Positions 431-28,959 of a DNA stretch of 64,000 nt are shown piece by piece; positions within the stretch are counted from its first letter, which is position 1, and each line of letters begins with the position of its first letter. The notes beneath the pieces were generated by a model that saw only the letters and a list, made by a program, of their open reading frames with translations, did not search any database and had not been told where the DNA came from. A program made the position numbers and the translations under genes. The stretch is taken from positions 78,467 to 142,466 of the forward strand of contig NMRA01000648.1 in NCBI GenBank assembly GCA_002633005.1, given 5' to 3'. This stretch comes from Phoronis australis. Taxonomy: Eukaryota; Animalia; Phoronida.

Positions 431-1563
431 TTTTCTGCTTTTGCCATTCTGTCTTGTTGAGGGTACCAGATGTGACTGGCTATGTACATCTGTGTCGCCC
501 ACCAAAGCACGAAGATTCCTATATGAAAGTAGAAGAGACCGTTGTCTTTGTCTTTTTCGGGACAGTACCAAGAGTACGGACCAGGGATGAACGCATATCC
601 TTGACAGTGAAGTATGATAATGGCTAGAGTTACCGGGGAGGCCAGTGTCAACGGGAGGCTGAAGCTAATCTTCTGCATACAGAGTTTACAAGCCAGGCGT
701 GCAAAGTAAAAACATATCATCGTTGACAAAATCTGCGCAATGGCTGGGGAATATTCGATGAGAAATCCCACAAATGCCAAAGTACTCTCGCTTGAAGTTG
801 AATTGCTAGACGAATTACCAGTTTCCATCTCTTCTAATGCTTTAGTTGCATTGAAGGTGGTCCAAATACCAATTTTGTACCCGGGTACCAGAATGTACGC
901 GAACGCAATTGTCCAGCCGAGCTTCCACAGAGAGGATATCGGTAGTGACTTCTGACGACTCTCGTGCAGTTCTGCCTTGAATTGCCTGACGCTGACTGGG
1001 ATTCGACCAAATAGCCACTTGTCTTGTTCCGCGAAATTCTCCCACCATGTAAGAGATACCAAGAGCAGAGAAAGTACGATTTCCCACGTTAAGGAATCCA
1101 AGGTAAAGCTGGAAAGGTTTTCCCACAAAGAAACCTTTCGCCAGAAACTGTTTACTGGAAAGCGATGACCAGGCGGCGCCATAGTCGTGGTTACATTCAC
1201 TGTAGTCCCGTTGACGGTCGTCATGTCAGCCATCGTACTCGGGCTCTGAGTGGAATCTCCGTTGTTCATTACGGAGTCGTCAACGAATCCTGTGAGGACT
1301 ATTACAATTCCCGCTGTAAGCTGAATGAAGAACGCAGCGCACGTCAAAATTTTAGATATTATCTGCCGACGTTTGAATGCGTTCAAGTCATCGTTTTCGC
1401 GTAACGTAGGCGTGGGCTTCTTTTTAAAGAAAATTTTGCAAAATCCCGGTACAGTCGAGACTGCACTGGTGACAAGTAATGCCCGCACCATTTCTAACTT
1501 CGGAAGAACTCTGAATACCAGTAGACAGAGGCCAAACGTATGAAGTAGTTCAAATATCAGAAT
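431..1563 (-). CDS. Exon 19: chitin synthase multi-pass TM region
   Basis: [21 protein letters not shown]...WWENF...[15 protein letters not shown]...[14 protein letters not shown]; donor GTGAGT at 430. Confidence 0.94.
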
Positions 1564-4500
1564 CTGAAATAGAAGAATATTCGTTTAAGTTGCATCAAAC
1601 AAAATAAAATACGGTACAATATTTTCTGATTTAGCAAGCCTATTTTTGCTTCTCAATTTATCGAAACGCAGAGTACTTCGTGAGAAAAAGGAAACTTGGG
1701 CTTAAAATTTTATATTTTCAGCTAACGAATATAATCACTGACCTTTGTATAAGTATTGACCTTGAAAGTTTGAAGACGTGTATTGCGTTTCGCATATAAA
1801 GGAGACTTACCTTTAGTAAGCAACGGAATTTTGGGAAAGGCATGCTTCCAAACATGGCCTTGAAAAGATAGGTAAGGAACGTGAGGCAGTATGGCACACA
1901 GACGCACACGATCACTAGAGTCAAGTGTGAGTTTCTCGCTTCATCGTGTTGTTCTTTGAGTGGATGCTGGAAAGTGCAAGTCACAGAATCAGGGACGGTT
2001 AACAGCAAGGTACTTGAGACACGTCCCGTACCTTCAGGTGTTCCGTACCGCCACCAAACGACGATAAAGCTAGTATATTACGTACAACGAATTTCCTCAC
2101 AAGTTTATCAAGCACTTGCCTACAATATATTTTGCTGAAATTTAAGTTTGTCTGCTTGTCAAAACAAGTTATTGTAGAGCAGTGCTCATTCTTTTAGTTT
2201 TCAATTTAGATAGGTTTGGGGAATAGTTTGTTTGATTTAGTAGCCTAGTTTGCACGTGGAGCTTTGGGAGACTCGTTAAGAAGAACTGTCCATTTAAAAC
2301 GACCCACATAATGTCTAATTTGGCAAACTTCGGAACATCGTATCTCATAAATAGCTGGTCGGATTCCTATAAAACTTTTTGCACTGTTCTACAAAACGAC
2401 ATTAGAAATTGTGTTTGAAGTGTTCCACTTTTGCATGAGTTTCTATTAAAACAATTTGCTGAGTCGAGCGCAATTAATTGAACAAACAGAATAATTGACT
2501 ACTTGCAAACTGCATACTTCCTGGAGGACCGAAGATCTGACACTTTGATGTCTGTCCGCAGTCGATCAGAACTTAAGGAAATTTCACCTTATCGGCACTG
2601 TATTTTTGAATTTGGGTACTGAACATCAAAATACTCAGCGCACAACACTGATTTTCACGACAAGAGTCGACTCTACCGCAACCTGTACACCACCAGGACT
2701 CAGAATTATCATTCTTTTGAGACTGAACAATAAATGTTATCAATACGGAGTTTTATAAAATGACCGTAACTACTTTTATAGCGTTCCAATTAAGTATAAA
2801 CCTCAGACCATACTAGGAATCACGTGAAGTTATTCCATTATTTCTTCCGTTATATAGTTCACGGTAATTTTTTGTTTCAATTTGAAGTTGGCGGTTTTCG
2901 GCATTCAGCTCGGAACACAACGCGGTATGCCATTTTTAACAGTTGTCAATTAACTACGGCTATGAAGCGAAGTGACTGTGGAAGTTTGGTGGTAAGTGGG
3001 CAGCACAGGGGCCCCCAAGTTAATTTTGCTTCGGGTCCCGAAAGGTTATGAACGGTCCTATCTATATGTACAGGGGTCTGTTGTTGATATAGAGTCCGTC
3101 TGCTATGCTGACAGTTTTTGTACTGGTGTACGACAATGACTAGTCAAATAGATTCAAGCACCCCCTGACGACAATTTGTAGCAACTCGTATTCGTGTCGT
3201 CGTCCTCTAGTTTGGTTTGTATTTTTGTTCGAACACGATCTAAGTCAAAGAACGCGTGCTCATAATTTTATACCAATCAGAGACCAAGTTGGCTTTCGCT
3301 GCAGAAATCTAAGGAGTCGTCCAATAATGTATGTACGCGAAAACTAGCGAAAAATGGAACTGGATGACTACGAAAGACACCAGTTGTTTAACGGCTAGAT
3401 GATTCATACTTACACTGTCATTGTTCACCGTGTGATGCGCAATAGCTGACGTTAACAGCAACAGCGAACCTTTGCTAATAACGGTGCAGCTGAGAACAAT
3501 GGCGAAGATGAAGAAATACATGAACACTTTGAGACACTTTAAGAAGGAACTGAAATCCTCGCTGGCACTTGAGCGCTCTCGAGGTATCATTTGAAAGACA
3601 TCCCACGTTTCTCTGAAATTAAAAGCATATTTGTAAGTTAAACGATTTGTATCGAGCTGTTTAAAACCAAAATAATACACTCCAAATTGGATTTGAATAT
3701 TTTATCTTTCAGTGTCTTTCCGATTTATTTTCATTTTTTGTGTAATGTTACATAATTAGTGTAAGTATATTACGCACGTCTTTAGTAATCTCAGTTCGAA
3801 GTGTCCTCGTAAAGTGTAATAAAATTACATGTAATTTTGATGTCACTGTCGTCATTTCAGTGAGTATCGTTATCAAAATAATCAGTGCTATCATTACCGT
3901 TATTCTTAGGAAAAACTACATTACTGTATCTTTCATTTCTTTCCTTTTGGAATAACTCACATTTCTTCGGAAACGAAGTTTTATTTATTAATTTATGTTA
4001 GCTTGTTCAAATAGTTTGTGAACCCATCGTACAGTACATCTCTAGTGGGGCAACAAAGCGGCCTATAGCTGCAGCGCCATTCCACAAATATCATTATATG
4101 GCGTATAACAAAAGTAAACCTACTGAGGGTACTCATCGTCGTCCGTATCAATTTCGTCATCTTCCCCTTCGTAACTGAACCTATTGGCTGGCAGACCGCC
4201 ATTTTGCGGTACTCCACTCATTTCTCCTTTTGCTGACGAGTATGGTGGGGGCGGCATTGAGCCCTGAGTCTCACTGGAATCTCTCGATTCCTCAGACGAC
4301 TGGTCATCTGGTTTTTTGTCCAAAGCCATTGCTTGTGCGTGGACGTCGTCGTTGGTACTCGCGGATGGTTCTTCCATTTTAGGTCGTTCTTCATTGAGTT
4401 CGTTGGATGTAGATTCTAATTCTTTCGCCACGTCAGACAGTAAGGCATAATCCGTTTTCTTCCCGTGTTTTTTCGATATAGTCGAACTTGGTGTGTTCGG

Positions 4501-7500
4501 CTCTGTCTGCTCTGTCAAGGCGTCTAACCTTTTCCCCTCTCTTCTCTCTTGTTCCAATTTCCTATGGCGTTCTTCTTCTTTCATCTATTAAATAAAAAAA
4601 TCTCAATAAATTCTTCGTCAGTGACAGCACAAACGTCAGAGACGTCACGTGATACTGAACCAGCGCATGCGCATTGCCGACCATACTACAAAGAACTTGA
4701 AATTCAGGTTCAATGTCGACACTTGATTGGGTCACACCAGATGACGAAGAAGTCACGTGGTTTGACGTTATGTTTCATACCAAACAGTAAAACTCCAATA
4801 AAAGATGCAATTATGCGCATTAACGTTGCCTCATGGTTACAACATTGCGAGTTCATGGTATCCTAGTTAAGTGCATTGTATTGAAGAAATAAAATGAGCA
4901 GTAATGTCGTTCGTATAAAATTGACTGTCTTAAGTACTAAGTGTTTCTCTCAAGAATGCAATTTCTTTGAACTTAAAAGCTGTTGGTTGTCCAGCAGAGC
5001 AATAGTTGGCGTGCGATACAAAAATGATTATCGTCTCGAAGGTTTAATTACATCTGAAAACTGCGTTTGCGTCATGGTCACTACGTAGCCTCGTTTTAGT
5101 TACATGACCTTGCCTGTGAGAGATTGAACCTACCCGGTTCAAAACCAACGACAGAGAGTACATTAGCGTCGTCAAATTTATACATCACGCTAAAACTCGG
5201 GGTCTCCATTCAAGACACAACTTGTGAAATGGTCGCTGTTAGCAATGCTGAATATTTGTCTTACCTTTCTAATAACGTTTTCTTTAGCGGTTTTGATTAA
5301 CTGTGCATTCCTTTTGCGGCTGAGGTAACCTCTCGCACGAGCTTGAAACTTGGTAGCCAATGAACTAAGAAAGTTTAGCTTATATTCCAACTGTTCTAAG
5401 TCTTTGTCTTTAAGAAAAACCTGAAATTGTAAATATTGGAAACCAAAAGGAGCTTAAGTACATCTAATTACGTTTTAAAATGACAGTAGTTAAAAGGTTT
5501 TAAGTCAACAACATCATTTCTTCGATTGGCGTGTTGTAATCTGGGTACATTCCAGAAGGATTTATGAAGCCCGAACTGAGGCGTTTATCCCAATGTATGA
5601 ATACTCAGCCTCTCTCATATCAGAAGAAAACCTCAGTGAGTTGGTGTGTTACTTCATCGAACAATTTGAGTGGCTGACAATTGTCTCGTGCTCAAGTTAA
5701 TGCTAAGATAAACAAGACCTAAAAGAACAAAATCTTCAAATTTCAGATTTTCGGTAATGAAAGTTCTTACACTTAACAAAATGACTACAGTGAAACTGTT
5801 CGATATAAAACCTCTAATCTTGCGCATCGTTTATTTAAAAGGCACACTACGTTATCCCTGAAAGAACAATGTTATTCTCAGTAAGCCACTCCCCGACTCC
5901 TATTTTCACAAAAATGGCCGAGAAACGAGAAGTAGTAATGACTAATGCCACCCACGCCTTGGTTGATTTGGCTATTATTGCGATCATTATTTCATTATTA
6001 TTGACATAATTTCCTTGAACTGTTTATAATTCAAGACCCACGCAGCGGCAACTGTGCCAAGGTGAAATGACAAGCGTTAAGCTGTAATAACTCAAATTAT
6101 CCCCAGTTGAAGCAATCTATGGACTACATTCGGTCCATGGTTTTATCAAGTGTAGGAGCATTAGACAACCGAAAGAAAAAAGCTAAAACCACAAAACATG
6201 AACAAAAACAGTGGGTTTTCATAGACGGCGCTGCACGGCAGATATAAAATAGCCACATAGAGTACAAAAAATATAAATAAACACCGCCATGCATATAAAA
6301 GCCGGACATCTCGCTTCACTGGAGACCACTTTATGTAGTACAATGATCCAAATATAAAATACATGTATAAAATATACTTGAAGTAAATGATTTTCCTAAA
6401 ATATCCATACATTAAGCATACGCTGACAGACTCATTTACAAAAAAAATGTATGAGGGTAAAAATGAACGTCGTTGCTTTAATAGTTTTAATTGCCGGTGA
6501 CGATATCTTAGTGTGAAGAAGAATGACGTGTATTCACTTCACAATGATAGTCACTCCATATTTGACCTCAAATTGATGCAACTTCTGCATTAAACATTTA
6601 TCGATGCAACTGCAGGAAACCCAACCCAGTAAGGCTTTAAATGACAATATTAAACCAATTTATCCGCATCTTTCTGACACACCTTAAAAAGCGAAATACG
6701 ACGATGCCTTTACAACATCAGGTAAACAAATTACTGTGGTATACGACAAATACCTCTTTATTTCCTTATTAGTCTTGATTTCTTTAATTTGTCAAAATGA
6801 CAAAAGTTGATGCATACTTTAAAATGAAATAAGTAAGCCTTGAAGCTATTGGTTCAACCACGAGATGCCCCTTAGAAAATCCCGTTGAATTTATTCAGCA
6901 TTATAAAAATATTTTCAAATTGTGGGCCGTTAACAGCATAGAAGTTTATTACTTCGTAATCGCTATTCAAGCAGTCAAGCAGCCGCGTCCTTATCGTACT
7001 AATGTTAAAGAAGTCGAGACAAGAACAATTTTATTCAGTATAAATTTTACGATGTATCTGTCCGCTTTAAAACCTGGCAGGAATTGGTAACAGCCTCACA
7101 GAAATATGCCATAATTCATGGAAATACCCTAGGTGTCAACGAACTTACAACCGGAAGCAAACCTGTACACGCACACCCAAAACCTCTCATGGTCTGTCAA
7201 AATTCTGCAAACCTCTAAACGCTGATTTTCGACTCGACATATTATCTAGTCGATGTAAAGCTGTAGGTTTTTGGTATAAATTTCTTATTTGCTTACAAGG
7301 AAATGAAAACGTCTTAAACATGAAATGAATGTAGCCGATGCGTCCTTAATAGGTATAGTGAGCACTGCTTAGATGATATGACCACTACCTTGGGACACAT
7401 CGTTTAACACCATGGCGCGTGCCGAATCTTTGATTAATTTTGCCACGGCCACAATGTGCTCTTTCATAGGTGTTATTTTTGATTTAATAAACTTTGAAGT

Positions 7501-10321
7501 TGAATATTTTTGACATGACACTCTAGCGCTCACTTTAATGTTAAGCATTCTTATCAAAGATTCAGCGATAACGAAGTCTTTTTTTATTGATAAAGTATGT
7601 TTCCAAGTGTCAGTGTAGACACCTGTCAACCATCCCAAACAAAATCTTCGCATATGTCGAACATATGTATATCAGTAAACTTCTGAAGGCTAATTGGGAG
7701 AGTTACAGCTTCTCTGACAGCCATAAAATAAAGTGAGCGTTTACCTTTGACGAACCAACCGCATAGTCTTGAACTTCAAGCTCGTTTAAGATGAGTTCAC
7801 ACGTTTGTCCCGTGGCCCCCAAATACTGTGTCTCGGCAGTTCCAATGGGCCCGTATCTAAAGAAAGTGCAACCAAGTTTGTCATGTGCTTACCTCAAAAA
7901 AAAAATCCGGCAAGTAGCACCAAATAGGCGCGTCTCAAGTCCAAATCAAGTGAAAGCCTTGTGGTCAATAATGTTTATGTGCATCACCGTCACCTTTCAT
8001 TTTCATTTTGTCACTTGTCAACAAATAAATAAACTTTATTAATGTCATTTTAGTTGTACTTATGCCAACCTGAAATGCGTTGTCTAGAGCACTCATTAAA
8101 TCATGGATCAACATTTTGAAAACTAATGACAGGAGAACAGAGTCGTGAGAGAATGGTGGTCAGGTCGCTAGGCAACTGATCACGCGCACACAACAATCTA
8201 TATTAGAAGGAAGGGCAGAATGAAAGTGACTGCGGCTACTTTAGAAACGCCTCAAGTCCAGCAAACAATGTATCCCTGGCATAATGACCTTTGATTCTCA
8301 TTTGCCTGTCCTGTCTCAAAAACCACGGTAGTCTGAGGACTAAGACGGTTAGATTCAAACGAAACCCAATTTTGCTTGTTTTTCATGGAAATGAATCATT
8401 GTCTTTTATTGATGTGGCTTCGAAAACTCATCGAAGCGACGAGTTCTTGAATTCTCTGACAAGAATCCCGGAAACGTGACTTGGTGTCCCCGGCCCAAAA
8501 AGTCTGAAACAATGTCAATGACCTGACAATGATCTCAACTTGAGCTCCCCTGAGTTCATTCATCGCCTTTCGGTAACCGTCATTGTTGGCCGCTAACAGC
8601 ACAGCTTGGCAGTGATCTAGCGGAAATGGAAATTTGTGTCACCACGAAAGTGAGGGTGACCTCCGCCAACTAAGAACAGGCGAAGAAAAGAACGTTCTTA
8701 GAGAAAACAGAGTGTTGAAGTGATCGCAAATCAATTGAAAGGTGGAATGTTTTGAGGGAGAAACTGGGCCTAACAACGAAGAGTGAATTTGCCAAGTTTT
8801 AATGAGACCAGTAAGTTCACCAATTAAAAATGAATCACTGTCTGATATTTTCAAGCAACCCAATCTGTCGTCGGGGTCAGCAACACTACCGTTTCCGCCT
8901 CCTGACCCTTTCTACTTTGTTCGTGTCAGTTGCGAATTATGACCCTTGCATGTATATACATACATGTATGTATAATCAACGGAGTGTAGAATTTTTAATC
9001 CTTAAGGAAATAAGATTTTTAGAACACGGGCAAGGTGCAGAATTTAACATACTGTATTTATTAATTATCAATGAGTACTAGGAAATAAATTTCACGTGCC
9101 ACTATTCATAATGAATACATATTATGTGTGGTGGTAAGGCCGTCTACTTCGTCAATTTTCTGCTGATTAAAAATACAAGTTTTCGTTGAAGAAGCGAAAA
9201 AATTTGCAAAAACTCTTCATCTTGTCTACTTTCAAACCCAGACAATTCAAACCAATCAGAAGTGGATTTAGCAACTTTAATGTACGTTGCGTCTGTGTAA
9301 TGACCTCATTTAATATGTTGCAATTGTACTTTAGCACAAAGTTTTTGTTTGACATAATTTAGGGTCACACTCACCTCTCCAGAAAGTCGCTAATTTCCAT
9401 TCTGGTCGCATAGCCGCTCTTTCGTATTCGTGCAATCTCCACCAAGCCGTTGAAGCGAAGTTGCTCTTTCACAAGTTCGCAGTTGAATCGATCCGGTCGG
9501 CTGTGCGGATTCGGCTTGATGCAACGCACGAACCAAGGATTTGTCCGGTATAACTGGGACATTAGTTCGGACAGCGAGTTCTAGAAATGGACAATGATTT
9601 CCATAAATAATACACACAAAAATTGAAACAAAGGATTTTGGGAAGCCCCGTTTCTCTGTAACATTACAAGCAACCATGAACTCCTAGCATTAGTGGAAAA
9701 CACAGGTGTTGCGTAACAAAAGAACACCGTCTTCTTGCGCATTTTAGCATGATCACCATCGTAACTTCCGGAACTGATTCAAATATGACATAATAGTCCC
9801 CACTTCGATCTTGATTACGATGCACCCATTCTTTAAAATCACGTTCGAATTATGCTCAATTGTTTTGTCTCCAATATATAAGTCTGAAGAAAATGAACAT
9901 TTTCAATTATTACCTTGAAAATCCCAAAGCAAGTATTTTCCCGGTTTCATTGAAATTCACGTACATGTATGCCCCATCCATATATGTACGGCTGTTCGAG
10001 CAGTTTCTACACAGAAGTTTAACGAAGATTTTTTTTTTGTTTCGTTTTCGTCAGTTACCTTAAAATGGGCAAGGACAGTTGATTGAATTCGCACAGAGTC
10101 GTGTTGAGTTCCCGGTGTCTCTTTCAGTCTGAAAGTTAAAGTGGATGGTTGCATAATATACTAAAGGATTAATTACGTGTAAAACAAGAAGTCATTTCGC
10201 ATTCACAAGGTTGCTGTTGCAGGCTTTTTATGTTCGTGGTGGTTACACATCTGTACCAGATATTCAGTCAGTAAAAAACCCCGTGGTTACCGACTAGAAA
10301 GAGAAACAACAACAAAAACAA

Positions 10322-10365
<44 letters not shown>

Positions 10366-13300
10366 ACAAGAAAATGGTTATAGTACCGACTAATAGCAGT
10401 TGTAACTAGACGCCAGAATTAACAAGCCAGTGTATTCGACGCCGGCCACCGGGTTTATCGACATAATCAAAAACTGAAAGAACCCCAATATTTACCCACT
10501 TTTGAATTTAATAATAAGTATTACATATGCTTTCAGAAGTTTATCAAATACATTGTTCCAATCTACTAAAACAGAATTATTTGAATATTATAAAATTGAG
10601 AAATTTATTGTCCAAAAATTGCCAGTTGCAAGTTTTCAACAGTAGATGGACCCTGTTCGAAGAAGACTGAAAATATTATAGTGGCCGAGAGTGAATGTTG
10701 GTGACCGGGAAAACAGATAATACAACTTAGTTATAATGTTTGTTTACATTGCCTATGAGTATGACTGAACAAATTTTTCAAACCATGGAATGAGTTCAAT
10801 GTCAAGCACAATGTTTGACATTCACTCGCTATTCAATTATATTGTCGCGGGAAGGAGCACAAAACAAGAGGTGGGTTGTTTCAAAGCCTGTAAATTTGCT
10901 CTCGATTCGATTCGATTTTCAATTCTAGTTTTTGGATTTGATACTTTAATTCAATTACCAAAACACATGCAAAATGGAAAAAAATGTATATTCCGCAATC
11001 TAGGGTACGCATACTTGTGTTTTCTCTCGTTTATTCAGGGCAACGGCAAGTTGGTGCCAAATTGTCGTTTTTGCACTGTGTTGAGTTTGGTGACTTACCG
11101 TAGAAATTTTTTGCTTAGACGGTTTGTTTCGAGACGGAATGCCTTTGTAAAATAAGTCGTTACGAATACTGACCATCAGGATATCATTCGAGGTATGTTG
11201 CTTAATCTGGATGAATCTTACAAATGTGTCTTACCGTTGTCGTAATCCATGTGCAGCCGTTCTGGAAACACTGTGTCGGTGCATTGTACTAAACAGATCC
11301 GCATGTGTGTTCTTTCGTTTTAGATGGGGTTTCATTTTCTTCATACTTGTGTACCTTGAGAAGTTGCCAGTGTTGCTCATTGTAGGGGTGAAAAGTTCCT
11401 TAATGAAGTCGTTTGAACTTGTCAACAAACAAGAAACAATGCCAGAGCTTAGTGCATCACGATTTTTCACCAAAAAACCTGTAGCGTCATACTGAACCTG
11501 TAAATGAAAGTACACAGCGTAACACAGTCCTTTCAAGTATCCGACAAATGAGCTCTTAGGGATCAAATTATCGTGTTGCAAATACTAAGAATGATTTATT
11601 TGATGATGGGATTAAATTGTGAATGAAATAGCTCACCTGTCCTGCATAATGACGTATTCTGAATACTTCATAATCACCGTGGGGTTTTACGTAAAGTTTA
11701 GATTTGCTGCAGTTTTCGGTTAATTTCCGCACAAGGCTCCCATCGGTTGCTTGTGGAAATCGGGATTCTTCGTCGATGAGGTCGAATATCCCCGCTTTCT
11801 GGAAAGGAAAGACAAATTAGGATTTAGTCAAGGATCGTGTTCAAATTACTTGCATCCGAATAGAACATTCGGGCCATCGCTGTGCAACAGGCCCGCGTGA
11901 TGCCATCCAAATATTACATGTACGTAGAGTACTGATCCGTACGCAGTTTCTCCTGATACAGCAAGGATATATTCAGTTTTAGGATTTCTGCTCTTTTACA
12001 CGTTCCAAATACAAAACGAGCAATGCACTTAACCGAATTCGGCATACGCGTTAATGGCTACCAAATACTGGTATTCTACAGCACCAGTCTTTAAACTTAC
12101 TGCTTTGAATAGGTCCAATAGTGGCTCGTTGTTCTGAAAGACTATGGTAGTCCAGTTGATTCCGTTGTCTTCGTACTCTCGTTGCTCCATTTCAAAAATT
12201 CTCGTATTGAAGAAGTGTTGTAATTGTTCGTTCGCAAAATTTATGCACAGTTGCTCGAAGCTATTCACTGAGAAGTTTTCGAATCCGGACATGTCGAGAA
12301 TGCTTATTGATGTCGCCTTCTTACGAACGCTTGAAATAAAAATAAAAATAAAAATAAAAATGAAACATCTTTTGTTAAAAAATTAACGGGATAGGTTACG
12401 AACAATCTTCAGTAATGTTCATTTTGTTCTTGTTGGAGGAACAAAACTTTGTCAAATTTTCAACGAAACATGGTTTAATGAAGGACTGTTACAAACATTT
12501 ACTAAATATAACTCGAACACTGAAGTAAGAGAGTATGTTAGTGGGGAAGTAACATTTGGATAAAATGGTGTTTTCTTCGCAAATTCACTGCCCAAACCAC
12601 AGCATATAGTACAAAGTCATATCATGGTCACATATCGGCCGGTAGTCGGTCGATCCTGCCACCATATCCTGATGCCTAACAGGCTTGGACGATTTTTGTA
12701 GAATCAGAAAAGCGTTGAGTGCTTTTGACGTTGACACCGGATGTCGCTTCCGATAATCGTCTGACTTACGGCCAATATGACCTTTTTCTCCCATTAATTC
12801 ATCCAAATGGCGTCTGAAGCTTTATGAGAGCCAGACATAACATCCGAAAGTTTATACCCATTCCATACAACTGGGAGTTTAATTTAGCGAGTGATAGAAA
12901 AGGCACAATATTTGAAATTTTACCTTAAAAATAGTAGTATACCCCTTTTGTGAAATCCAAGATCAACCAATAAGTTATTTACCTTTGTGCTGTTCCAAGA
13001 TCCTGGTTGATTTGTCCCACAATCCAACCGAACAGCCGTGCATACAACGCTTTTGCCAAGGCATCTCTACCATCGTTTGCTTGCTCCAAGGTTTTAAACC
13101 TGACGACAGTTTCTCCTCGCATTACAGACGTTGAAGATATTAAAGATTCTGTGAGTTCTGTTTCGTCTATTTCCAGCAAACTTGCAGCTACAACGCAATT
13201 ATGAAGTTTAGAGCCAGGTTAAGTTTTCGTGGACCAAGTTTCTTGCGAGGAAAACGAAATCACGCAACACCACGCGAAACCTAGCAAAATGGCGGCCACT

Positions 13301-14207
13301 GAAATCATTGGTTGGTGAGGATGGAAGGTCGAGTTACTAAATAATGGAATATAATTCATTATTTCCGTTCCATATAGGAATACTTATCGTCGCAACACAT
13401 AGCAAATGTGTTGCGTCTACAGAACACACTAGTTGGACTGTGTCGCCTGCAATACACATGCCTACTGTGTCTCTGATTCTTTGATTTTGCATTCGTAGGC
13501 TTACCGGTATTTTGAGCCGTCACAAAATAAACATGGAAAAAGCAAGCAGGCATCACTGTGAAAAACAGACAACAACGAAAGTTTAAGATGGCTACTGTAC
13601 GTGCAATATTCTTACCAATTTTTAACGGCTTCTCGTGATCTATGATGACAGCGTGACATTCTTCATCAGACCGGAACTCAATGTTAGTGAGATGTAAGAT
13701 TGCTGCCAATATGGTATAAATAGTAGCCATATCCTGTAAGATTGTATAAACACTATCAACATTGATGGTAATAAACGTAACGATGTTCATATTGGCCATG
13801 GTCACGATGATTATGACGATGACGATGATAACGATGACGAATATGACGACAATGATGACAACGACAACGACGACGATTACAAGGACGAGGAGAAGGATGG
13901 TGACAAAAAAACAAACTCAGTTAAACATTCTTAAATAGTGTATTTAAAATTTACCGTTTCATTGAATCCACAAAGATCCATTGCTTTGTTTTGCCTTTCG
14001 AACATTTCCTTCCATTCAAGGAACTGAGGGGTACCTTCCAAGATTGGGCACTTGCCAAAATCACCCGTGATAATTCTAAATGAATAGAAGAAATGTCTGT
14101 TATCATTGATATTTTATTAGTATTATAATTATTATTACTATTACTATTACTATAATTACTATTACTATTACTATTACTATTACAATTACTATTACTATTA
14201 CTATTAA

Positions 14208-14252
<45 letters not shown>

Positions 14253-17200
14253 TATTATAAATTACTATCGTCAGTATCAGTATCACTATCACTATGATTA
14301 TCATTATTATTATTGTTATCACTCTTACTGCTTTTATTGTTGTATTGTTGCCCTCATTATTCAAACAGTATTTGTATAGCTCTGACAGCATAGTCCGTTA
14401 TAAAACTAAATATCAATTTTTTAAAAAAAATTTAGTTATCAGTAGAAATACGCAGCATAAATGTACATGTAGTTAGAAATTATGTAGCATAAATTCTGGT
14501 ACATAGCATAGATCTAGAACATTTACATCTCAGAAAGCCACACCATACCTATATCTGTTTGGTTCGCTAAGAAAATATTCTTCTTGCAACTTCTGCTTGT
14601 CAATGCCGCAGAACATGTAATAGAATATGTGGAAGTTTCTGTCGTCTTTTCCTTGCTGTACCACTCGCGATTTCTCCAGTAAATAGTCCTGGATTTCCGC
14701 TGTAAAGCATTTAAAGTGAACCGTTTGGTCAAACGCCGTCGTAAGCAGGCGACAATATTGCTAGTTTTTCACAACGTTAGCAGGCAGGTTATTATAGAGT
14801 CTGTTTTGCTCCGAAGAAAGACTTTGAACGAGTTTGTAAATGAAAATTGTATCACGTTTTCAATCATCAAGTCCTGACAGTCTTCTGGTATAAATTCATA
14901 CACCCATCTCTCGACTTAATTAGTGCTCCAGGTAAAGTAGACGTCATATGAAACGTAAGGGGCCAATCTAAAATTGTTGGACGCAATGCAATCGACCAAA
15001 TCTAGCATTTTCAGGACACTGCTTCAAATCGTTTTACAAAAAATAGACTCGAAATTATTTTTGACATGCCATGTGCTACTTGAGTACGAACGCAAGATTA
15101 CTGCGCTCGAGTGCATTATGATTTACGTGGCTGAATGTCTATCCTATGTTGTACTCGATGACCTCGGCATTAAAGATACAAGTTCTAGCCTGAACTCGAA
15201 ATTTCGATATTTTCACTCGATTCTAAGTGTCATCAAGTGCGAACTTGAACCAGACACTCAGATGCGTAAACCATAGCATATCCGTGCACACAATCAAGAA
15301 TGCTTACCTTGAGGTCGTACTGAAGTAGAATAAAAAAATGCAAACATATCTTTAGTTCGAGTTCGAAGATCTGACCCCGGGTCCAGATACCAGTTACGCA
15401 ACACAAGAAACTCGCTAGTGAAAGTTAGTGTTATGCACTGCGATATCTCGCGAATTCTTGCGTGATCTCGCTTAACTCCTAAACTAAACCATAGTTACGA
15501 AACCTGGCCAATAAAATTAGAAAGCTTTACCTCCCACGACTTCACCCTCCTCCGTGAAATGCATGCTGATTAATTTACCAAACCGACTGGAATTATTGTT
15601 CATGGCAGTCTTGGCATTTCCAAACGCCTCCAATAGAGGGTTTACCTACGAATAAAAAAAAAATCAGTTAAAGCTACTATGAAGTTTAGGGGTACCCTAG
15701 AATCACTCACACTAGCATCGCATCTTACGCACGAAGTACATGCGAACCTCTGAATCATTCATTAGAACCCATGAATCATGTGCACGAACCACAAAAATCA
15801 CACATATGAACACAAATCATGCGCACGAGTTTCCGAATCATACGCACAAACAATCAGACGATAAAGTATTACAGATTACAGATTTCTGGGTAGTGGAAGG
15901 AACTGCGTTTGTTATTGGTTGAGACAAGGGCTAATAGGTTGACTATGTCACGGTGACTTACTTTCACTGCGGAAAGGGTTGGCACTCTGACTCTTTGAAA
16001 AAACGCATCTTAAAAGATTGGCTTGTGAGTGTGTAGTGTTGTTGTATTAAACGTGGTCACAAATAACTGGAGTTTTGGATTGATTTGCTTTACCTTGCCA
16101 CCAGGATCGCTTGGACTCGGACATTACAGCAGGCAAGTTACATAGAAATGAAACCAACAGTCGTGAACACGACAGCAAACTATAAAATTGATCTAAACTT
16201 AAATAAAACGCTCCTAAAAGAGTCTTCTTTTCTAACATGTAAAAGGATCATTAATTTTTTTGATTCACTGTCTGTTTTCAGTGCCCCCAATTATCACAGT
16301 GTCTATTGTTATATTTTATGGTGCCTGTCATGAACGCTATAAGTTTCCGAAGTAGTCCGTAGTAATAGTACAGATTCTATGAGTTTTATTCGTTTTCCAG
16401 CTTGCAGTGACATCTTAACCCTATAATTAATCGCATTCTCAGTCCGACCCACCTGCACAATTTTTTCGTTTAAGTTATCAAAATTGCTTGGAGATAACTT
16501 GGTCACGTGGTCGATCATCAGCTTCGTATTTTCCGTCTTCCCTGAGCCAGACTCTCCACTGACCAAAATGCACTGGTTTTTGTGCGTGCGTAACATGGCT
16601 TGGTAGGCTGCATCCGGTACCCAGAACACGTGCGGTGCAACGGAACTCCTGGACGTGACATTTGTGTACTTCCGGTGATTCTGGAATATGCGTGTTTTAA
16701 TTAACATTACAAGAAGGAGAATACACGTATGCGATACTTGGTAGAGTACTAAGTTGATGAGCAGATTTTAACACGTTACTTTGTAAAGAAAAGACAATAA
16801 ACCGAATTTTTTTTCTAAAATAGCGATTCAATCACGTGATAAGTTCATGTCATCAGTACGTGAATATTGTGGCGTTGCTTGGATACGGGAACTTTGAGAT
16901 TATTCATGCAGTCATCTTTTACCTCTCGTACATCTCGGATTCGCAGGTCAACCGTCAGATGTCAGTCGGGACTGTGATAGGTGAATAATGTGCGATTGTA
17001 GTGGTAATAAGGATTTAATTGCAATAATCTGAAGACTGGTTTTTCCTGTGTATCGAGCTAGGACTAACTAATAATATGAACACTAAGGAGTGGGCTTTGT
17101 GAAAACTTGGGTGACTTTGTAAATTACTGGATATTAACAGACAACATCAGCGTATGTACATATAGTAGTCATAAAAATGCGTGACGATCTTGAATATTTT

Positions 17201-23200: not shown

Positions 23201-26200
23201 GAAACAAATGTGTGAAGTTGTCTAAAAAAACTTGCATATTTTGTTAACAAGTGATGTGTTTAAAGAATTGTTATGACTACGAGTGAAAAATAAAGACGCA
23301 GTTTTGTACAATACTTATTATATACACCCTTGCTTTCTGAAAATAATAATTATTTAATTTTTTGGGAAATTGTAGAGCAGTCACCAAATCATATTTTTGA
23401 AAAACTGGGGTAGCATTTTTGACTCAACCGGGAGTATTTAATTATTCATATTTCAATATTTGTTCCAGGTTCAGTGACATTTTAGGGCCACTTCAAGCCG
23501 CAACATAGACAAGCTTTGGTTACTCCTTTCTCTTCCCACAGCACTTCCACACACCAACAGTGCTGCATGGCACAATGTACAAGTCAGTGGCCCTGGATAA
23601 ATGTGAATCGCAGTACTAAGTTACCATAAGACGATGTGCCAGGGTATTCTTTGTGTATGAAGATGAACTATATATGATTGCTACACAAGTCAGCTTCGTT
23701 GGTGAGGATTCTCTTTCATAGGGAATGAGTCATGTGTGGACAATAGCTTATTTCCTTTCCTGGAAGAAACATGAGGGACTGAAGCTAAAGAAGACCTGGT
23801 GACACTCTGTCTAGTTCAGGGTCAGATTCTGGGCACAAAACGAGTCAAGCGATATGCTGTTACGTTTACCTTCAAGGATCTAATAGCGGAGTTGCAACCG
23901 AATCGATTTAACGATTGCGCATGTCCGGAAGTTAGGGTGCGCAAAGGCTACTGGGATTGTTGATGGTAAACGGGATGACCGACTGGTTTGCACGACGTGT
24001 AATTTGTGTGCATTAAACTACGCTGCTGTATGTAATTCTGCCGCTATTCGCCCTAATTAGCGCCCATGGCTCAACAAGTGCCCCAACGCGTTTTCAGACT
24101 TTGCTAAAGTAAGCGCCCAGCCCATGAACTACATGCGAAAAATGCCCTTACCTACAGTTCTAACGTCTCCAATTTATCAATTGAAAGATCCGACAGCCTG
24201 AATTTGTAACGGACCACGAGCCTCACCGTTATGTCCGTATACACTTCAAACTTACGCCGCGATTCAAAAAGAACGCAGAAGTTTTGCTGCTCTTGCGAGG
24301 GATGTGCCCCACTACGCGGGTCTGGACTTTGAAAACAGACACAGCGTACTTGTCAAAGAGCGGGATTGCATTGTTTCTTTCCAGTACAGATCTTCTCCGG
24401 CCTCAAACTTCTTTGTGCATGTGAAAACCGTGAATCGAAGACTAATAAAAAAAACTCGACCAGTGTTAGCACGCGACCAAGAAGCGCGCGCTGCATAATG
24501 TACCGACTGTCATCGAAGATTAATCGGGTAACATAGCATCGGCAAATAAATATTGGCACTAATTTCCGAAAGTTTCCAATACCGTAAAAAGCTTCTGCAT
24601 TATTTTTAAGAGAAATTATTTAACTAATCATAATTGGTGTTTTTAAGGTCAAAATGACCCACTTCGCACCCTTACACCCCAAATCTTCCGGGAAATAGCT
24701 GTTACACTACGGTCACGCATCCACTCACCCGGCGACTCAATGAGTGACATGTCGGTCTTACCGAAAAAATTCTCGAACGTTTTTAGCAGATGAGGCCAGC
24801 AAGTGCTAAGCCGTAAATATTAAAACACGCTCTGCTTGACTGCTTGACTTATTTTTTTTTTGGATACAATGCACACCTAGATCATTACATTACTCTGGCA
24901 AATGAACTCTGATGACAAGCACACGCACGCTTACTCTCACACACACGCATACAAACTTCAAAACAAACGTCACGTGACAACAACATGTGTTCCCACAGAG
25001 ATTTTTCTCGGGTTGCGTGCTACAATCTAGCGTAGATTTGGACTTAATCTGCAGTTAATCCAGACTTCACAAGAACTTAAAAATCTTAGAGACGCTATTT
25101 GGAAAACTTGAGGAGGATTTCAGGTAATTTGTTGAGTCAAAGCTGTATTCTTATTTAAGAATTCAAGCCCTATCGACGATTGCGAGACCAGCAGCTACGC
25201 ATTTGTCGGCAAGATTTCGCCCTGGAACTTCAACAAAATTTTATGAAAAATGATCGTAATTTAACAACGAATTTTGATAGCAATGTACCACAATTTTGTA
25301 GAAAGTAAATAATAATAATCTGCACGCTTTATCTTAGCGCGTAATGCATATAGTGTGCATACGTTAAGTGAGTCGACCCAGAACAGGTGATTGTGCAGAG
25401 GCATTATCCTCAAAATTGCTCATGTTGGCTTGGTTCTGGTCAAGCGAAAACAAGTTTTTTTTTCACTACCAACCGCCGTGGAGTATTTGTTACTGTTTCT
25501 TTGAAGGGAGATATTGTTGGGCAGTTTCTAAGATACGTTTTCTTGCCGCCCTCAAAATGAGCGCTGCACACTTTATGCTACGAAGTCGGAAAGAATTCAC
25601 GAAGTCGGCCTTTGCTACCAGCTCTACCGATGTCTCTGACCCATGTTTAACGCAGTTCTTGATCCTTGGGAAACAGGTAGTAACTAAATTTTTTATTTCG
25701 CTAACTGGTATTATAGCATGCCAGGCACACAACACGTATAACCTCCCTGTGGCCGGTTCGCCCCCACGCTTGCCGACGTACTTGTTTACCGGCTTAACCA
25801 CAATGCAACATTCTGACCCATTTCCAATATGGCGGCGTTGCGGATGTTATTGAGGCGGAATGAGGTTAGGCAAGCCAGTGTCCTGGACCTTTTTTTACAA
25901 GCGCTTCTATAGGCCATTGACACTAGATCCCTGTGAAATGGAAACCAAAAGCATCTGGTATAAATTCCTGTCCTTCCTCGCCGAGTGACATTAAATTTTC
26001 CTTTCAGAAGAAACGCTTTATTCTAATGGTAAAAACTTTTCAATTTGGCACGCATTATGGGGAAATGACATTCAGTGACTGCATCGATTGTCTTGTTGTC
26101 ACTAGAAAGCCCGTTAATAATACACTTTGATGATCTAATAAATTTTTCATCAGCAGGCAAGTTTGTCACTAATTATTGAAACCACTAAATTTCTTCAGAT

Positions 26201-28959
26201 TTAAAGCCCCATACAGTGCAGTTGTGCTTATTCTTTATGAAGCTGAAATGATTACCAAATACGCTAATTTTTGCGAATTGTCATTTTCCTGTTGACCTAT
26301 AGAAATGTGCAGCGATCAAAATGAAGTACCGCGGTATTCTCTTTGTTTGCGTTTGATTTGTTTGTGTGTGTAATTATTTTTAGACCTTTCTTAAGAAGGC
26401 CTTTGAAAAATTTTAAGTTTTGTGTTAACTTGTTTATGAACAAAAGTTCCACATGCAAGAAAAGTATGTTTTTAATTGCAGGTAGCTGGATAAAAACTTG
26501 CTATGCACAAGATTCGAGAATAATTATCAGTGCATTTAAAAACAAAATGACAAACTGAATAACCACATAAATACAAAGAAACAACATTGTTAAAAACTAT
26601 TATAATTTCCCCAATGCAAGGGAGTCCATAATCAGCTATATCAAGGGCTGAATTTCTGAATTAGGTTCAATTCTCTCAGGTTATTGTTGAAGGATTGCTT
26701 TTCACTTTGTCCAAAGGTAAAATAGACGGTCAGGAGGCAGGTTTCAGTCGTTTTCTCTCACCTGTAACAAAATAATCAGAGAAATATTAGCAAATTATAA
26801 AACAAAACGCAAGACAAAACTACTTTGGTAAGGCAGAACATGCTTGAAGTTTCATCTTCATGTTTATATGTAGAAACTAATAATCTTTGTACCCAAGTCT
26901 TATTTAAGATCTGAATTAAAATATGTGAAACAGGCTAAACGTGATTTAACAATGTCTTGTTTCATTACATCTAAAATGTGCTTCTGATCTCAACAAGTAA
27001 AATTCATTCTAGGTGTCAAATTTTAGTCCAATGCAATATGTTACGACATTTACTGAATAGCTTATTCATGTTAATTCGGTAACTAATCTGGTAGTCCCGA
27101 GGGCGGGGTCCGCTTCAAAATAAGGAAACTCACTCATCTAGAGAATTTTATTGGACATGGCATAGCTTTGAAGAGAAACTGCTGTAAAGAAGCCACCCTT
27201 GACTTCTGAGCGTCACGTAGCAAACACCGCTTATATTGGGCGAACTCCCATCCAGGACAATATGGGAAAATGTGCTGCTAACCTTCCCGGCATCCGAGTC
27301 CCGGGTGCATTTCCGAAAAGAAACACTTAGTTGCACTCAATAAAACCGTTATTCAGTGGGGTAACTGTTGGGGATAACATCACCGAACGATGTCGATAGA
27401 AATTAATTGCTAAAAACTTACCTAGTAACGTTATGTAGTCTCCCAAATGCATAGAGCACACACGGGGCTTCGGCATCCACACCTTTTGTCAGTTAGTTGA
27501 CCCTTTTGACCAATATGTAGTAACCTTAGGTCTTTTGGGAATTTGTGGCCACCTGTCGAAGACTTGCACCGGGGAAAATAGCAATAATAAGGCTTTGCGC
27601 GACGACTTATTTTCATAAAAATTCCGTCTTTTCACCAGCTGTTTACATGCAGACATCGACGCATGCGCAATTCAATCGCCTCTAGCACAGCAGCGACACC
27701 GCGAGTAGAATTCTCCGAATAGCCCCATTGGCGACAACGAAGCATGAATAAAATAAACAAAAAATGAACAGAATTACACGCATTTATCTCAGACTACACT
27801 TCAACAGATGTTGTTTTTTGTCACATATATCGTTTTTTACGTGAGTGTGTTCTTCTTTTGTATTTGGGCACTGACCCTCAACTTCCCCGGCTTTTTAACC
27901 AAATTACCGCCTCACTCGCATGTAGTTCCAGAGTTCGGGCATCATGTCCACTAGCACAATACTCTGATAATATCTACATTCTTCTTTGCAACCGGTTATC
28001 AGGGTTTCAAAGCAGATTTGTCAATTTAATTAGGAAATCGAGTTTTGTACGACTCACTTTATTGGCTGTAAAACCGTACGAGTCCCTTTATGATAATACT
28101 CAACAATACTGAAATCATGACGTTTAATGGGTTGGCTTGCTTTTCTCACGCGATTCATAGGAAAAACGAATAACGACTTACAGTATTGATCAAAACTAAG
28201 GTCTTTACTGGTAAACGGGTTAGTTATTTTAAACTTACACCAGGAAATATATTTTGAATCATTCCCTTTAATGCCAACAAAATTACAAAACAATAAGCAA
28301 GAACACAAAGAGCAACATTAACAATGATAGCAACAAGAACCACAACAACAACATTTATAAATTATTTCCTCCAGTATGCAATGAATACAGAATCTTTTGT
28401 GAAGCTTCTTACCTCACTATTGTAGATCGGAAGAACCTTGTATGGATTGACTGTGACTAACACGTCACCGATGAAAGTCTGGAAATTTAAACGGTGGCAC
28501 ATAGTCATAGATAGTGTAACATGGTGTTTCTGTCTGCTTTGATGCACAACTAAATCACATGTTGGCACGCATCCATTTTACCTACTAGATTTTGCTCTTT
28601 TGAGCATTTCATGGTCTCGCGTGCAGGACGTTGAATAAAATGTAACTGAATATTTAAGAAAATTAGGGACATTGGATTTTCAGCAGCGATTGTGAAATAA
28701 AAGCATACCTTAAGCTATTTGAAAAAGCAATAGGGAAACGATTACCCACACAGAACGCTGCAGAAAATAGTATCCTTTACGATATAAGAATTGTATTATG
28801 CAAAAGGAGGCAATTTTTTTCACTCACGTAGTATTTTGTTTTCTCATATCGTCGTTTCAGATAGTCTAGAATGATATTCGCATCAAGGACTTCAAGTGTT
28901 GACAGGTCGTCTGGTTCGGACCGTTGGATTCGGCTACTGGCTGCTTCACGACTTTTCAT
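431..28959 (-). CDS. CHS: Myosin-motor-domain chitin synthase, 5' part (19 coding exons; 3' end outside the window)
   Basis: Hand-spliced exons: 28828-28959, 28413-28478, 16453-16680, 15531-15645, 14549-14699, 13955-14075, 13616-13733, 12983-13187, 12101-12329, 11637-11798, 11235-11497, 10059-10128, 9375-9580, 7745-7856, 5265-5420, 4124-4584, 3414-3612, 1811-1966, 431-1563. All introns are GT..AG with matching phases and there are no in-frame stops. Myosin motifs are followed by chitin-synthase N-terminal motifs ([40 protein letters not shown]). Confidence 0.93.
1811..1966 (-). CDS. Exon 18: chitin synthase TM region
   Basis: [18 protein letters not shown]...FGSMPFP; CAG acceptor and GTAAGT donor. 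Confidence 0.9.
3414..3612 (-). CDS. Exon 17: chitin synthase N-terminus, first TM helices
   Basis: ETWDVFQ...[29 protein letters not shown], typical of the start of metazoan CHS. Confidence 0.92.
4124..4584 (-). CDS. Exon 16: charged, low-complexity linker
   Basis: TAG acceptor directly before ATG AAA GAA; donor CA|GTAGGT; E/R/K-rich start and acidic end. Confidence 0.87.
5265..5420 (-). CDS. Exon 15: end of motor plus IQ motif
   Basis: VFLK...[15 protein letters not shown] matches [IF]QxxxRGxxxR. Confidence 0.92.
7745..7856 (-). CDS. Exon 14: converter
   Basis: YGPIG...[19 protein letters not shown]; TAG acceptor and GTAAAC donor. Confidence 0.88.
9375..9580 (-). CDS. Exon 13: SH1/SH2 region
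   Basis: [10 protein letters not shown]...FVRCIKPN...[18 protein letters not shown]. Confidence 0.95.
10059..10128 (-). CDS. Exon 12: end of loop 2
   Basis: [23 protein letters not shown]; phase 2/0. Confidence 0.87.
10306..10348 (+). repeat. (CAA)n microsatellite
   Basis: Directly visible. Confidence 0.95.
11235..11497 (-). CDS. Exon 11: includes loop 2
   Basis: [16 protein letters not shown] followed by a basic insert; donor GTAAGA. Confidence 0.85.
11637..11798 (-). CDS. Exon 10: myosin head
   Basis: [19 protein letters not shown]...FRIRHYAGQ; CAG acceptor and GTGAGC donor. Confidence 0.94.
12101..12329 (-). CDS. Exon 9: switch II and relay helix
   Basis: [32 protein letters not shown]; AAG acceptor and GTAAGT donor. 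Confidence 0.94.
12983..13187 (-). CDS. Exon 8: myosin head
   Basis: [26 protein letters not shown]. Confidence 0.94.
13616..13733 (-). CDS. Exon 7: myosin head
   Basis: [20 protein letters not shown]; CAG acceptor and GTAAGA donor. Confidence 0.92.
13802..13880 (+). repeat. (GAY)n degenerate microsatellite
   Basis: Directly visible. Confidence 0.8.
13955..14075 (-). CDS. Exon 6: myosin head
   Basis: [14 protein letters not shown]...[10 protein letters not shown]; TAG acceptor and GTAAAT donor; phase 2/0. Confidence 0.85.
14113..14320 (+). repeat. (TAT/TAC)n microsatellite
   Basis: Directly visible; source of the spurious poly-Asn ORF. Confidence 0.95.
14549..14699 (-). CDS. Exon 5: myosin head
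   Basis: [29 protein letters not shown]; phase 1/2. Confidence 0.93.
15531..15645 (-). CDS. Exon 4: switch I
   Basis: [24 protein letters not shown]; TAG acceptor and GTAAAG donor; not in the ORF track. Confidence 0.95.
16453..16680 (-). CDS. Exon 3: myosin P-loop
   Basis: PHVF...[19 protein letters not shown]; CAG acceptor and GTGGGT donor. Confidence 0.95.
17364..17518 (+). mobile_element. Family A ~150-bp MITE-like element
   Basis: TIR CGTTCAGTAACGCTAGGACCT...AGGTCCTAGCGTTACTGAACG. Confidence 0.85.
17852..17903. repeat. Near-perfect 52-bp palindrome
   Basis: ACTAATGAAACATCTGAAAAAACAA-A-TTGTTTTTTTCAGATGTTTCATTAGT. Confidence 0.9.
18048..18203 (+). repeat. 18-bp minisatellite (ACACATATGTACGAATAT) x ~8.6
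   Basis: Perfect tandem copies. Confidence 0.97.
18595..18693 (-). mobile_element. Family A, degenerate partial copy
   Basis: AAAATACACGGCAATATCTCGCGTAAT...GCGAGGTCC core. Confidence 0.6.
19460..19660 (+). repeat. Cluster of TACCCA(T/C)TTGGTA repeats
   Basis: About seven copies, three of them at 17-bp spacing. Confidence 0.75.
20761..20924. repeat. ~165-bp imperfect palindrome (foldback element)
   Basis: Nested complementary blocks: ATAGATTATTACATG/CATGTAATAATCTAT, AGTCGTTATCCC/GGGATAACGACT, TTATCTAGAGCC/GGCTCTAGATAA, TGGATTTTG/CAAAATCCA. Confidence 0.88.
21460..21529 (+). pseudogene. tRNA-derived sequence (pseudo-tRNA or SINE head)
   Basis: A-box-like GTGTAGTGGT and B box GGTTCGAATCC. 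GCTGAG/CTCGGT can pair as an acceptor stem, but the anticodon and T stems are mismatched. Confidence 0.6.
23545..23721 (+). pseudogene. YqaJ/lambda-exonuclease-like remnant
   Basis: [34 protein letters not shown]...VGEDSL resembles HG..YE..A...Y....V..CGL.V...SPDG; contains a stop. Confidence 0.5.
26700..27616 (-). pseudogene. THAP zinc-finger remnant (transposase N-terminus)
   Basis: CYFPRC...HKFPKD, then frameshifted VCSMHL, donor GTAAGT at 27421 and acceptor CAG at 26762, giving [15 protein letters not shown] (THAP LK..AVP box with a stop). Confidence 0.72.
28413..28478 (-). CDS. Exon 2: [22 protein letters not shown]
   Basis: Canonical myosin T-x-x-G-x-x-L-x-x-V-N-P-Y motif; CAG acceptor and GTAAGA donor; phase 0/0. 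Confidence 0.92.
28828..28959 (-). CDS. Exon 1: start of myosin head (MKSRE...[28 protein letters not shown])
   Basis: ATG at 28959 and donor GTGAGT at 28827. A TTTCAG acceptor 6 nt upstream of the ATG suggests a further upstream exon. Confidence 0.85.

What the first reader, a model, noticed from the sequence alone, without database searches (positions are those of the whole stretch)
431..28959. Myosin motor fused in frame to an animal chitin synthase
Seen: 19 exons join without stops from a full myosin head through an IQ motif and linker into chitin-synthase TM segments. The junction exons (5265-5420, 4124-4584, 3414-3612) have matching phases (0, then 2). Known: myosin-chitin synthases occur in molluscs (e.g. 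Atrina Ar-CS1), other lophotrochozoans and some non-bilaterians, and independently in fungal class V/VII CHS. Inference: the protein couples actin or microvilli to chitin extrusion (shell, chaetae or tube). The architecture is not new in itself, but would be notable in a lineage where it is unreported, such as a deuterostome.
Basis: partly seen in the sequence, partly recalled or inferred. Interest (0 to 1): 0.8.

Follow-up and report, generated by a model that had tools for sequence, protein, structure and literature searches.

The report
Myosin-headed chitin synthase, two likely forms
This is an intact, transcribed gene that joins a myosin motor to the front of a chitin synthase, a design already known from molluscs, annelids and lamp shells, and it likely also makes a motor-less version of the enzyme from a second start inside the gene.

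Summary
The 19 exons are real. All splice sites are GT-AG and the model gives 1,427 residues with no stop: myosin motor, one IQ, acidic linker, chitin-synthase membrane region. The catalytic domain lies outside the window and was not seen. The protein is collinear with chiton, limpet, brachiopod and annelid myosin-chitin synthases (38% over 1,441 aligned positions at best). It groups with Capitella and molluscan copies, and a clade with amphioxus and crinoid synthases is rejected (p 0.0005). A deuterostome host is therefore unlikely, and the fusion is a known kind; the scan noted it before in an octopod. The extra finding: in one RNA sample the synthase exons have about six times the depth of the motor exons, with the step inside exon 16 just after a cluster of promoter-type motifs. 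That suggests a motor-less isoform (about 60%), which my searches did not find described.

The parts
28828..28959 (-). exon 1 (coding part): ATG and start of the myosin motor; an acceptor 6 bases upstream suggests an earlier, probably untranslated exon
   Evidence: aligns with the chiton protein from residue 18; no RNA laid
28413..28478 (-). exon 2, motor
16453..16680 (-). exon 3, motor with P-loop GESGSGKT
15531..15645 (-). exon 4, motor with switch [10 protein letters not shown]
14549..14699 (-). exon 5, motor
13955..14075 (-). exon 6, motor (variable region)
13616..13733 (-). exon 7, motor
12983..13187 (-). exon 8, motor
12101..12329 (-). exon 9, motor with switch II DMSGFE and relay helix
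11637..11798 (-). exon 10, motor
11235..11497 (-). exon 11, motor with a long basic insert
10059..10128 (-). exon 12, motor
   Evidence: RNA joint to exon 13
9375..9580 (-). exon 13, motor with FVRCIKPN and the SH-helix region
   Evidence: RNA joints on both sides
7745..7856 (-). exon 14, converter
   Evidence: RNA joint to exon 13; joint to exon 15 not listed
5265..5420 (-). exon 15, end of converter and the single IQ motif
   Evidence: RNA joint to exon 16
4641..4759 (-). cluster of promoter-type motifs at the 3' end of intron 15 (NRF1-type 4663-4673, E-boxes 4644-4651 and 4752-4759, CRE-type 4641, CCAAT-type 4724): candidate internal promoter; motif names recalled
4124..4584 (-). exon 16, charged then acidic linker; begins with an in-frame ATG, with another in strong start context at 4377; read depth steps up here in run X1
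3414..3612 (-). exon 17, start of the chitin synthase: WDVF motif and first hydrophobic segment
1811..1966 (-). exon 18, hydrophobic segment
431..1563 (-). exon 19, N-terminal membrane region of the chitin synthase; spliced onward to an exon outside the window

Best explanation
This is one expressed gene that joins a myosin motor with intact nucleotide-binding motifs, one IQ motif and an acidic linker to the membrane region of an animal chitin synthase; the motor likely holds the enzyme on cortical or microvillar actin so that chitin would be extruded at chosen spots, and a second start near the beginning of exon 16 likely yields the same enzyme without the motor. Shown here: the frame, the motifs, most splice joints from exon 12 on, onward splicing out of the window, and placement among lophotrochozoan motor-bearing type II synthases. 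Inferred from relatives: the catalytic GT2 domain follows some 250-400 residues later, and the full protein has about 2,400 residues. Inferred from fungal and mollusc work: the head is cytoplasmic, binds actin and ATP, and with one IQ works as a tether or short-range positioner rather than a long-range carrier. Inferred from read depth and motifs: a promoter in the last 180 bases of intron 15 drives a motor-less transcript that starts translation at the ATG at 4584 or 4377 and dominates in one of the three raw-read samples. The host is most likely a non-mollusc lophotrochozoan; which chitinous structure is made is not known.
For: Open 1,427-residue model with canonical splice sites. Domain hits. 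P-loop, switch I, switch II, relay and FVRCIKPN motifs all present. RNA joints across IQ exon, linker and synthase, all on the expected strand, and 36 plus 4 reads that leave exon 19 for a sequence that continues the frame with the motif that follows in relatives (read by hand, compared). One collinear alignment to the chiton protein XP_064608164.1, 546 of 1,441 identical; that protein and the Capitella, Lottia and Lingula relatives carry Myosin_head plus Chitin_synth_2. Tree position and AU test. Short form: exon-corrected depth in X1 is 24-39 on exons 16-19 and 4-7 on exons 12-15, in X2 flat at 2-5 (Fisher p 0.004 on estimated pairs). A fitted 3' slope predicts 17-21 on the motor exons against 4-7 seen. 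The step lies in the first 120 bases of exon 16. The motif cluster is the only place in the window with four motif kinds in 200 bases. A chiton locus is annotated with both partly motor-bearing and motor-less isoforms.
Against: The catalytic domain was not seen (no genome held). The tree branches that place the window (93/81 and 93/95) are below the starred level, and the motor tree has no outgroup. For the short form: read counts were estimated from binned depth; X1 has its own 3' gradient (56 to 26 across exon 19); X2 has few reads; no pile of molecule starts was listed near 4584 (table 6); almost no reads lie in intron 15; four of the seven motifs were chosen after I saw the sequence; the E-box occurs 13 times in the window. 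Nothing here tests actin binding or localisation.
Confidence: 0.8

Rival explanations
1. The gene makes only the full-length form. The depth step in X1 comes from 3' bias of that library, or from a recent motor-less duplicate elsewhere in the genome whose reads land here.
For: X1 shows a 3' gradient inside exon 19. No start pile was listed. No genome is held, so a duplicate cannot be looked for. Many X1 reads carry other letters on exons 17-19.
Against: The fall is about five-fold within some 270 bases of mRNA, after about 700 flat bases and before about 500 nearly flat ones. It coincides with the motif cluster. The other letters sit mostly near one half or three quarters, not at the four-fifths share of the excess reads.
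Confidence: 0.35
2. The head is a true transport motor that carries synthase vesicles, or pulls the synthase along microvillar actin during extrusion, rather than a tether.
For: The motor keeps more of the canonical motifs than the 10 relatives compared. PMC3942024 places these heads with myosins III and XVI; that myosin III moves along actin bundles is recalled. Synthase oligomers could group several heads (recalled).
Against: Only one IQ motif. A cited paper title says that the fungal motor domain is dispensable for vesicle motility (reference list of PMC12653383), though the fungal fusion arose independently.
Confidence: 0.3
3. A myosin gene ends at the stop just after exon 16's donor, a separate chitin synthase gene starts nearby, and the fused reads are read-through.
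For: Unspliced exon 16 runs into a stop one codon later and an AATAAA follows at about 3985. X2 has about one read pair in intron 16. Synthase exons exceed motor exons in X1.
Against: 16 spliced reads and no intron-16 depth in X1. X2 depth is flat across both halves. Relatives are single collinear proteins.
Confidence: 0.04
4. The host is a deuterostome or another lineage without known myosin-chitin synthases, so the fusion is older than thought or arose again.
For: The host is not identified. No relative above about 50% identity was returned, and the neighbouring receptor gene gave no close hit.
Against: The synthase part nests with Capitella and molluscan copies inside one paralogue group. 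A clade with Branchiostoma and Anneissia is rejected at p-AU 0.00048; those two proteins have no motor. The motor is 37-46% identical to the fused motors.
Confidence: 0.05

Closest known systems
Liolophura sinensis XP_064608164.1 (P0174, 2,393 aa), a chiton myosin-chitin synthase
   Same: One collinear alignment from motor to membrane region, 38% identity; same DMSGFE switch II and MIPRER motif after WDxF.
   Different: The window has a clear IQ motif, which Pfam did not list for P0174, and a longer, more acidic linker. The window branches outside the mollusc clade.
[quoted passage not shown] 2014, PMC3942024; class-36 myosins of PMC5583752), e.g. Capitella CAPTEDRAFT_51996, Lottia LOTGIDRAFT_127517, Atrina Ar-CS1
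   Same: Domain order and tree position; the 3' end of exon 19 falls where 31 of 41 motif-bearing short database proteins end, which suggests a shared intron.
   Different: Which of groups A, B or C could not be named (supplement not readable). The papers treat motor-less members as gene-level losses; here one locus may make both forms.
Liolophura sinensis XP_064608017-19 isoforms X1-X3 (P0169, P0168, P0024)
   Same: One annotated locus with isoforms that keep part of the motor and IQ and one that lacks them.
   Different: X1 and X2 hold only the last part of the motor, and X3 joins a different short first segment just before the WDxF motif, one exon later than the start inferred here. These are automatic models.
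Fungal class V and VII chitin synthases (myosin-17; CsmA, CsmB, Mcs1)
   Same: N-terminal motor on a chitin synthase; reported role in trafficking and tethering (PMC12653383, passages).
   Different: Independent fusion from another myosin group and another synthase clade (PMC3942024); they carry cytochrome-b5-like and DEK domains.

Membership tests
Lophotrochozoan motor-bearing type II chitin synthase (groups A-C) | N-terminal myosin motor domain in frame with the synthase | tested here: met
   RNA joints 15-16-17
Lophotrochozoan motor-bearing type II chitin synthase (groups A-C) | N-terminal multi-pass membrane region starting at a WDxF motif | tested here: met
   (5 segments above the hydropathy cut-off used)
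Lophotrochozoan motor-bearing type II chitin synthase (groups A-C) | GT2 Chitin_synth_2 domain with GEDRW and QRRRW | not testable with these tools
   Lies beyond base 1; no genome held; RNA continues in frame past exon 19; relatives have the motifs
Lophotrochozoan motor-bearing type II chitin synthase (groups A-C) | Synthase part falls inside the motor-bearing lophotrochozoan clade | tested here: met
   (92/92 and 93/95, not starred); alternative rejected
Lophotrochozoan motor-bearing type II chitin synthase (groups A-C) | No C-terminal SAM domains (type II rather than type I) | not testable with these tools
   C-terminus is outside the window; Pfam lists no SAM for the closest relatives
Class-36 myosin | Motor groups with class 36 against classes 3, 16 and 80 | tested here: inconclusive
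   Motor tree holds only fused motors, no outgroup; the search meant to fetch more found nothing
Catalytically competent myosin | P-loop, switch I, switch II, relay and SH-helix motifs | tested here: met
   (consensus patterns recalled); activity itself not tested
Deuterostome type II chitin synthase | Groups with amphioxus and crinoid synthases | tested here: not met
Class-3 myosin | N-terminal kinase domain | tested here: not met
   No kinase motif in six frames of the window and no kinase Pfam hit in 50 further ORFs; short kinase exons could escape

The most novel reading that the evidence does not exclude
One locus switches, by tissue or stage, between a motor-bearing and a motor-less chitin synthase through a promoter at the end of the intron that follows the IQ exon. 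Such internal starts would be a ready route to the repeated secondary losses of the motor reported in lophotrochozoan groups B and C, and some annotated motor-less members might be short isoforms of intact genes.
Probability: 0.55. Interest if true: 0.5.

Novelty: new member of a known kind. Interest (0 to 1): 0.3.

Why it matters
The fusion itself adds one more, fairly distant member to a described family. If the short transcript is real, the same catalytic unit would be made with and without its actin anchor in one animal. The role of the motor in animal chitin deposition, so far argued mainly from fungi and from inhibitor work in mussels, could then be tested by comparing where the two forms are expressed and what chitin they lay down.

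Tried and rejected
Own-genome search for the catalytic domain: no genome held. Lineage from the neighbouring intronless receptor gene: 1 hit among 4,839 candidates, 24% identical, uninformative. Profile search with an alignment of the chiton protein and 17 window exons: none of 7,988 candidates at E 1e-50, so no myosin outgroups were obtained. Supplement of PMC3942024 for group names: not searchable; it may bear on which group this is. Second lay aimed at the exon 14-15 joint: joint not listed, and no loose ends listed at either exon end. No RNA holder was listed by index; the runs came by species label. Run X3 has no depth on the exons. Rfam: 0 matches. tRNA: 0. Pfam on 50 other ORFs: 1 weak hit below its cut-off. 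PDB search with the chiton protein listed only myosins among the best 60 of 150. An alternative first exon spliced onto exon 16 was considered: no such joint or loose end at 4584 was listed, though an exon under about 20 bases or a trans-spliced leader could be missed. A myosin-only form ending in intron 16 was considered and is not supported in X1.

Full report
Observation. I rebuilt the gene from the sequence. Nineteen minus-strand exons between 28959 and 431 have AG acceptors and GT donors and matching phases, and give 1,427 residues with no stop. Scanned one by one, 10 of 14 motor exons hit Pfam Myosin_head in the right order along the profile, exon 15 hits IQ, and exons 17 and 19 hit the chitin-synthase N-terminal family, exon 17 only weakly. 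The catalytic motifs GEDRW and QRRRW are not in the window, and no genome is held to look further.

Transcription. No RNA holder was listed by index; three raw RNA runs and one contig set of the same species label were offered. Laid on 1-10200, exon reads come from the minus-strand transcript. Six of the seven joints in that stretch were listed: exons 12-13 (3+1 reads), 13-14 (5+5), 15-16 (5 reads in X1 and a contig in X4, another study), 16-17 (16+1), 17-18 (17+1) and 18-19 (20+5). The 14-15 joint was not listed there or in a second lay at lower stringency. Both exons are covered at similar depth and no loose ends were listed at their facing ends, so I read this as a count under the listing threshold, but it is not shown. 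At the end of exon 19, 36 reads in X1 and 4 in X2 run on into sequence outside the window; read by hand it keeps the frame and matches the motif that follows in relatives. X3 has no depth on the exons, so expression differs between samples.

Relatives. A word-index search with exon 19 gave 17 proteins; all 15 named ones come from molluscs, Lingula or Owenia. A full HMMER search gave 467 at E 0.001, of which 150 were listed, none above 50% identity; I looked up names for 30 of them. The best full-length match is a chiton protein, one alignment of 546 identities in 1,441 positions from motor to membrane region, followed by Lingula and scallop proteins. The four full-length relatives scanned carry Myosin_head and Chitin_synth_2. 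Of 128 short listed hits, 41 carry the motif that closes exon 19 and 31 of these end exactly there, which suggests a shared intron position.

Trees. The synthase N-terminal tree used the window and 29 named proteins; I dropped 2 of 31 prepared rows (one Haliotis, one Dreissena) and used no unnamed proteins. The window is sister to Capitella 51996 (93/81), next to a mollusc clade of chiton, limpet and bivalves (joint branch 93/95), within a 23-row lophotrochozoan clade (92/92) that holds all motor-bearing rows. Branchiostoma and the crinoid Anneissia form their own clade (100/99). None of the branches that hold the window is starred. Forcing the window with the two deuterostome proteins is rejected, p-AU 0.00048. 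The motor tree of 11 rows has no outgroup; it puts the window loosely near the same chiton and limpet proteins (77/83), which fits inheritance of the fusion as a unit but does not test myosin class. The host was not identified. A gene nested in one lophotrochozoan paralogue group but outside the molluscs points to a non-mollusc lophotrochozoan. An earlier AI note on this genome says the same, which is not independent proof.

Known background. PMC3942024 (read: abstract, introduction, results and methods, parts 1-3 of 4; supplement not readable) describes three motor-bearing groups A-C in lophotrochozoans, derived from myosin III/XVI-like heads, with secondary motor losses in B and C, and an independent fusion in fungi. 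PMC4595640 (passages) says the motor-bearing form occurs only in lophotrochozoans. PMC5583752 (passages) calls them class-36 myosins of molluscs, rotifers and annelids. PMC8476170 (passages) finds 7 of 19 synthases with a head in a tubeworm. PMC2241824 (passages) links the mussel enzyme to larval shell and cites actin interaction as unpublished. PMC12653383 (passages) gives trafficking and tethering for the fungal motor. PMC10216261 and PMC12046283 were seen as passages. Weiss 2006, Treitschke 2010 and Schuster 2012 were seen only as reference entries. The architecture is therefore known, and the scan itself noted an octopod example.

Mechanism. The motor keeps the P-loop, switch I, switch II (DMSGFE, shared with the chiton protein), relay and FVRCIKPN motifs, more completely than the 10 relatives compared (consensus patterns recalled), so it is probably active. 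One IQ gives a short lever. A 153-residue charged and acidic linker precedes the first membrane segment, which would leave the head in the cytoplasm. I infer that the head binds cortical or microvillar actin and holds or nudges the synthase where chitin is extruded. Transport of vesicles or movement along microvilli is the main rival. Neither is tested here.

The unexpected part. In X1, exon-corrected depth is 24-39 on exons 16-19 and 4-7 on exons 12-15, a density ratio of 5.9; in X2 the ratio is 0.9 (Fisher p 0.004 on estimated read pairs). X1 has a 3' gradient, but a slope fitted to exons 16-19 predicts 17-21 on the motor exons against 4-7 seen. The finer lay places the step in the first 120 bases of exon 16 (14, then 27-30), with almost nothing in intron 15. 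The last 180 bases of intron 15 hold an NRF1-type palindrome that is the only match to that 11-mer in the window (chance mean 0.02), two E-boxes, a CRE-type and a CCAAT-type site. It is the only place with four of seven motif kinds in 200 bases, the next best having two. The motif names are recalled, four of them were picked after I saw the sequence, and the E-box occurs 13 times in the window, so this is support, not proof. Exon 16 opens with an in-frame ATG and has another in strong context at 4377. A chiton locus is annotated with partly motor-bearing and motor-less isoforms, and a scallop member of the motor-bearing clade is annotated with 13 residues before WDxF. Against it: counts are estimated from binned depth, X2 is thin, no start pile was listed, and a motor-less duplicate elsewhere cannot be excluded. 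Searches for such an isoform in print found nothing relevant: 'chitin synthase, myosin, alternative promoter' 0 papers; 'lacking the myosin' 2 yeast papers; 'myosin head domain, isoform, mollusc' only the Lingula paper; a listing of 20 papers on 'myosin head' showed none by title. Most subscription papers are outside this library. Alternative promoters in insect synthase genes are recalled, not checked.

Verdict. The likely internal start (about 55-60%) is the only part that may be new. Interest 0.3.

Noticed in passing
window:49729-50925 (-): Intronless rhodopsin-family receptor gene (7tm_1, E 8e-38) with no close database relative.
   Followed up: partly
window:27434-27671 and 25443-25600 (-), inside the 11.7-kb intron 2: Broken frames that look by eye like THAP zinc-finger remnants of DNA transposons (recalled pattern); Pfam gave no hit.
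   Followed up: partly
window:21460-21545 (-): tRNA-like stretch, perhaps the head of a SINE; ARAGORN and Rfam found nothing.
   Followed up: partly
window:4120-4123 and about 3985 (-): Unspliced exon 16 meets a stop one codon after the donor, with AATAAA about 130 bases on: a possible myosin-only ending, with no support in X1 and about one read pair in X2.
   Followed up: partly
protein P0142 (Anneissia japonica XP_033113952.1): A crinoid has an annotated motor-less chitin synthase with a Chitin_synth_2 domain that groups with an amphioxus one at 100/99; the main text of PMC3942024 names no echinoderm synthase.
   Followed up: no
window:431-3612: High allelic variation in X1 on exons 17-19 (more than 25 listed sites, mostly near one half or three quarters), but only one listed site in exon 16 and none in exon 15; unexplained.
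   Followed up: no
window:18048-18214; 20790-20895: An 18-base tandem repeat and a 51-base inverted repeat in intron 2.
   Followed up: no
window:11235-11354 (-): Exon 11 has a second, same-phase GT at 11354 that would drop 40 residues of the basic insert in the motor; not checked in RNA.
   Followed up: no
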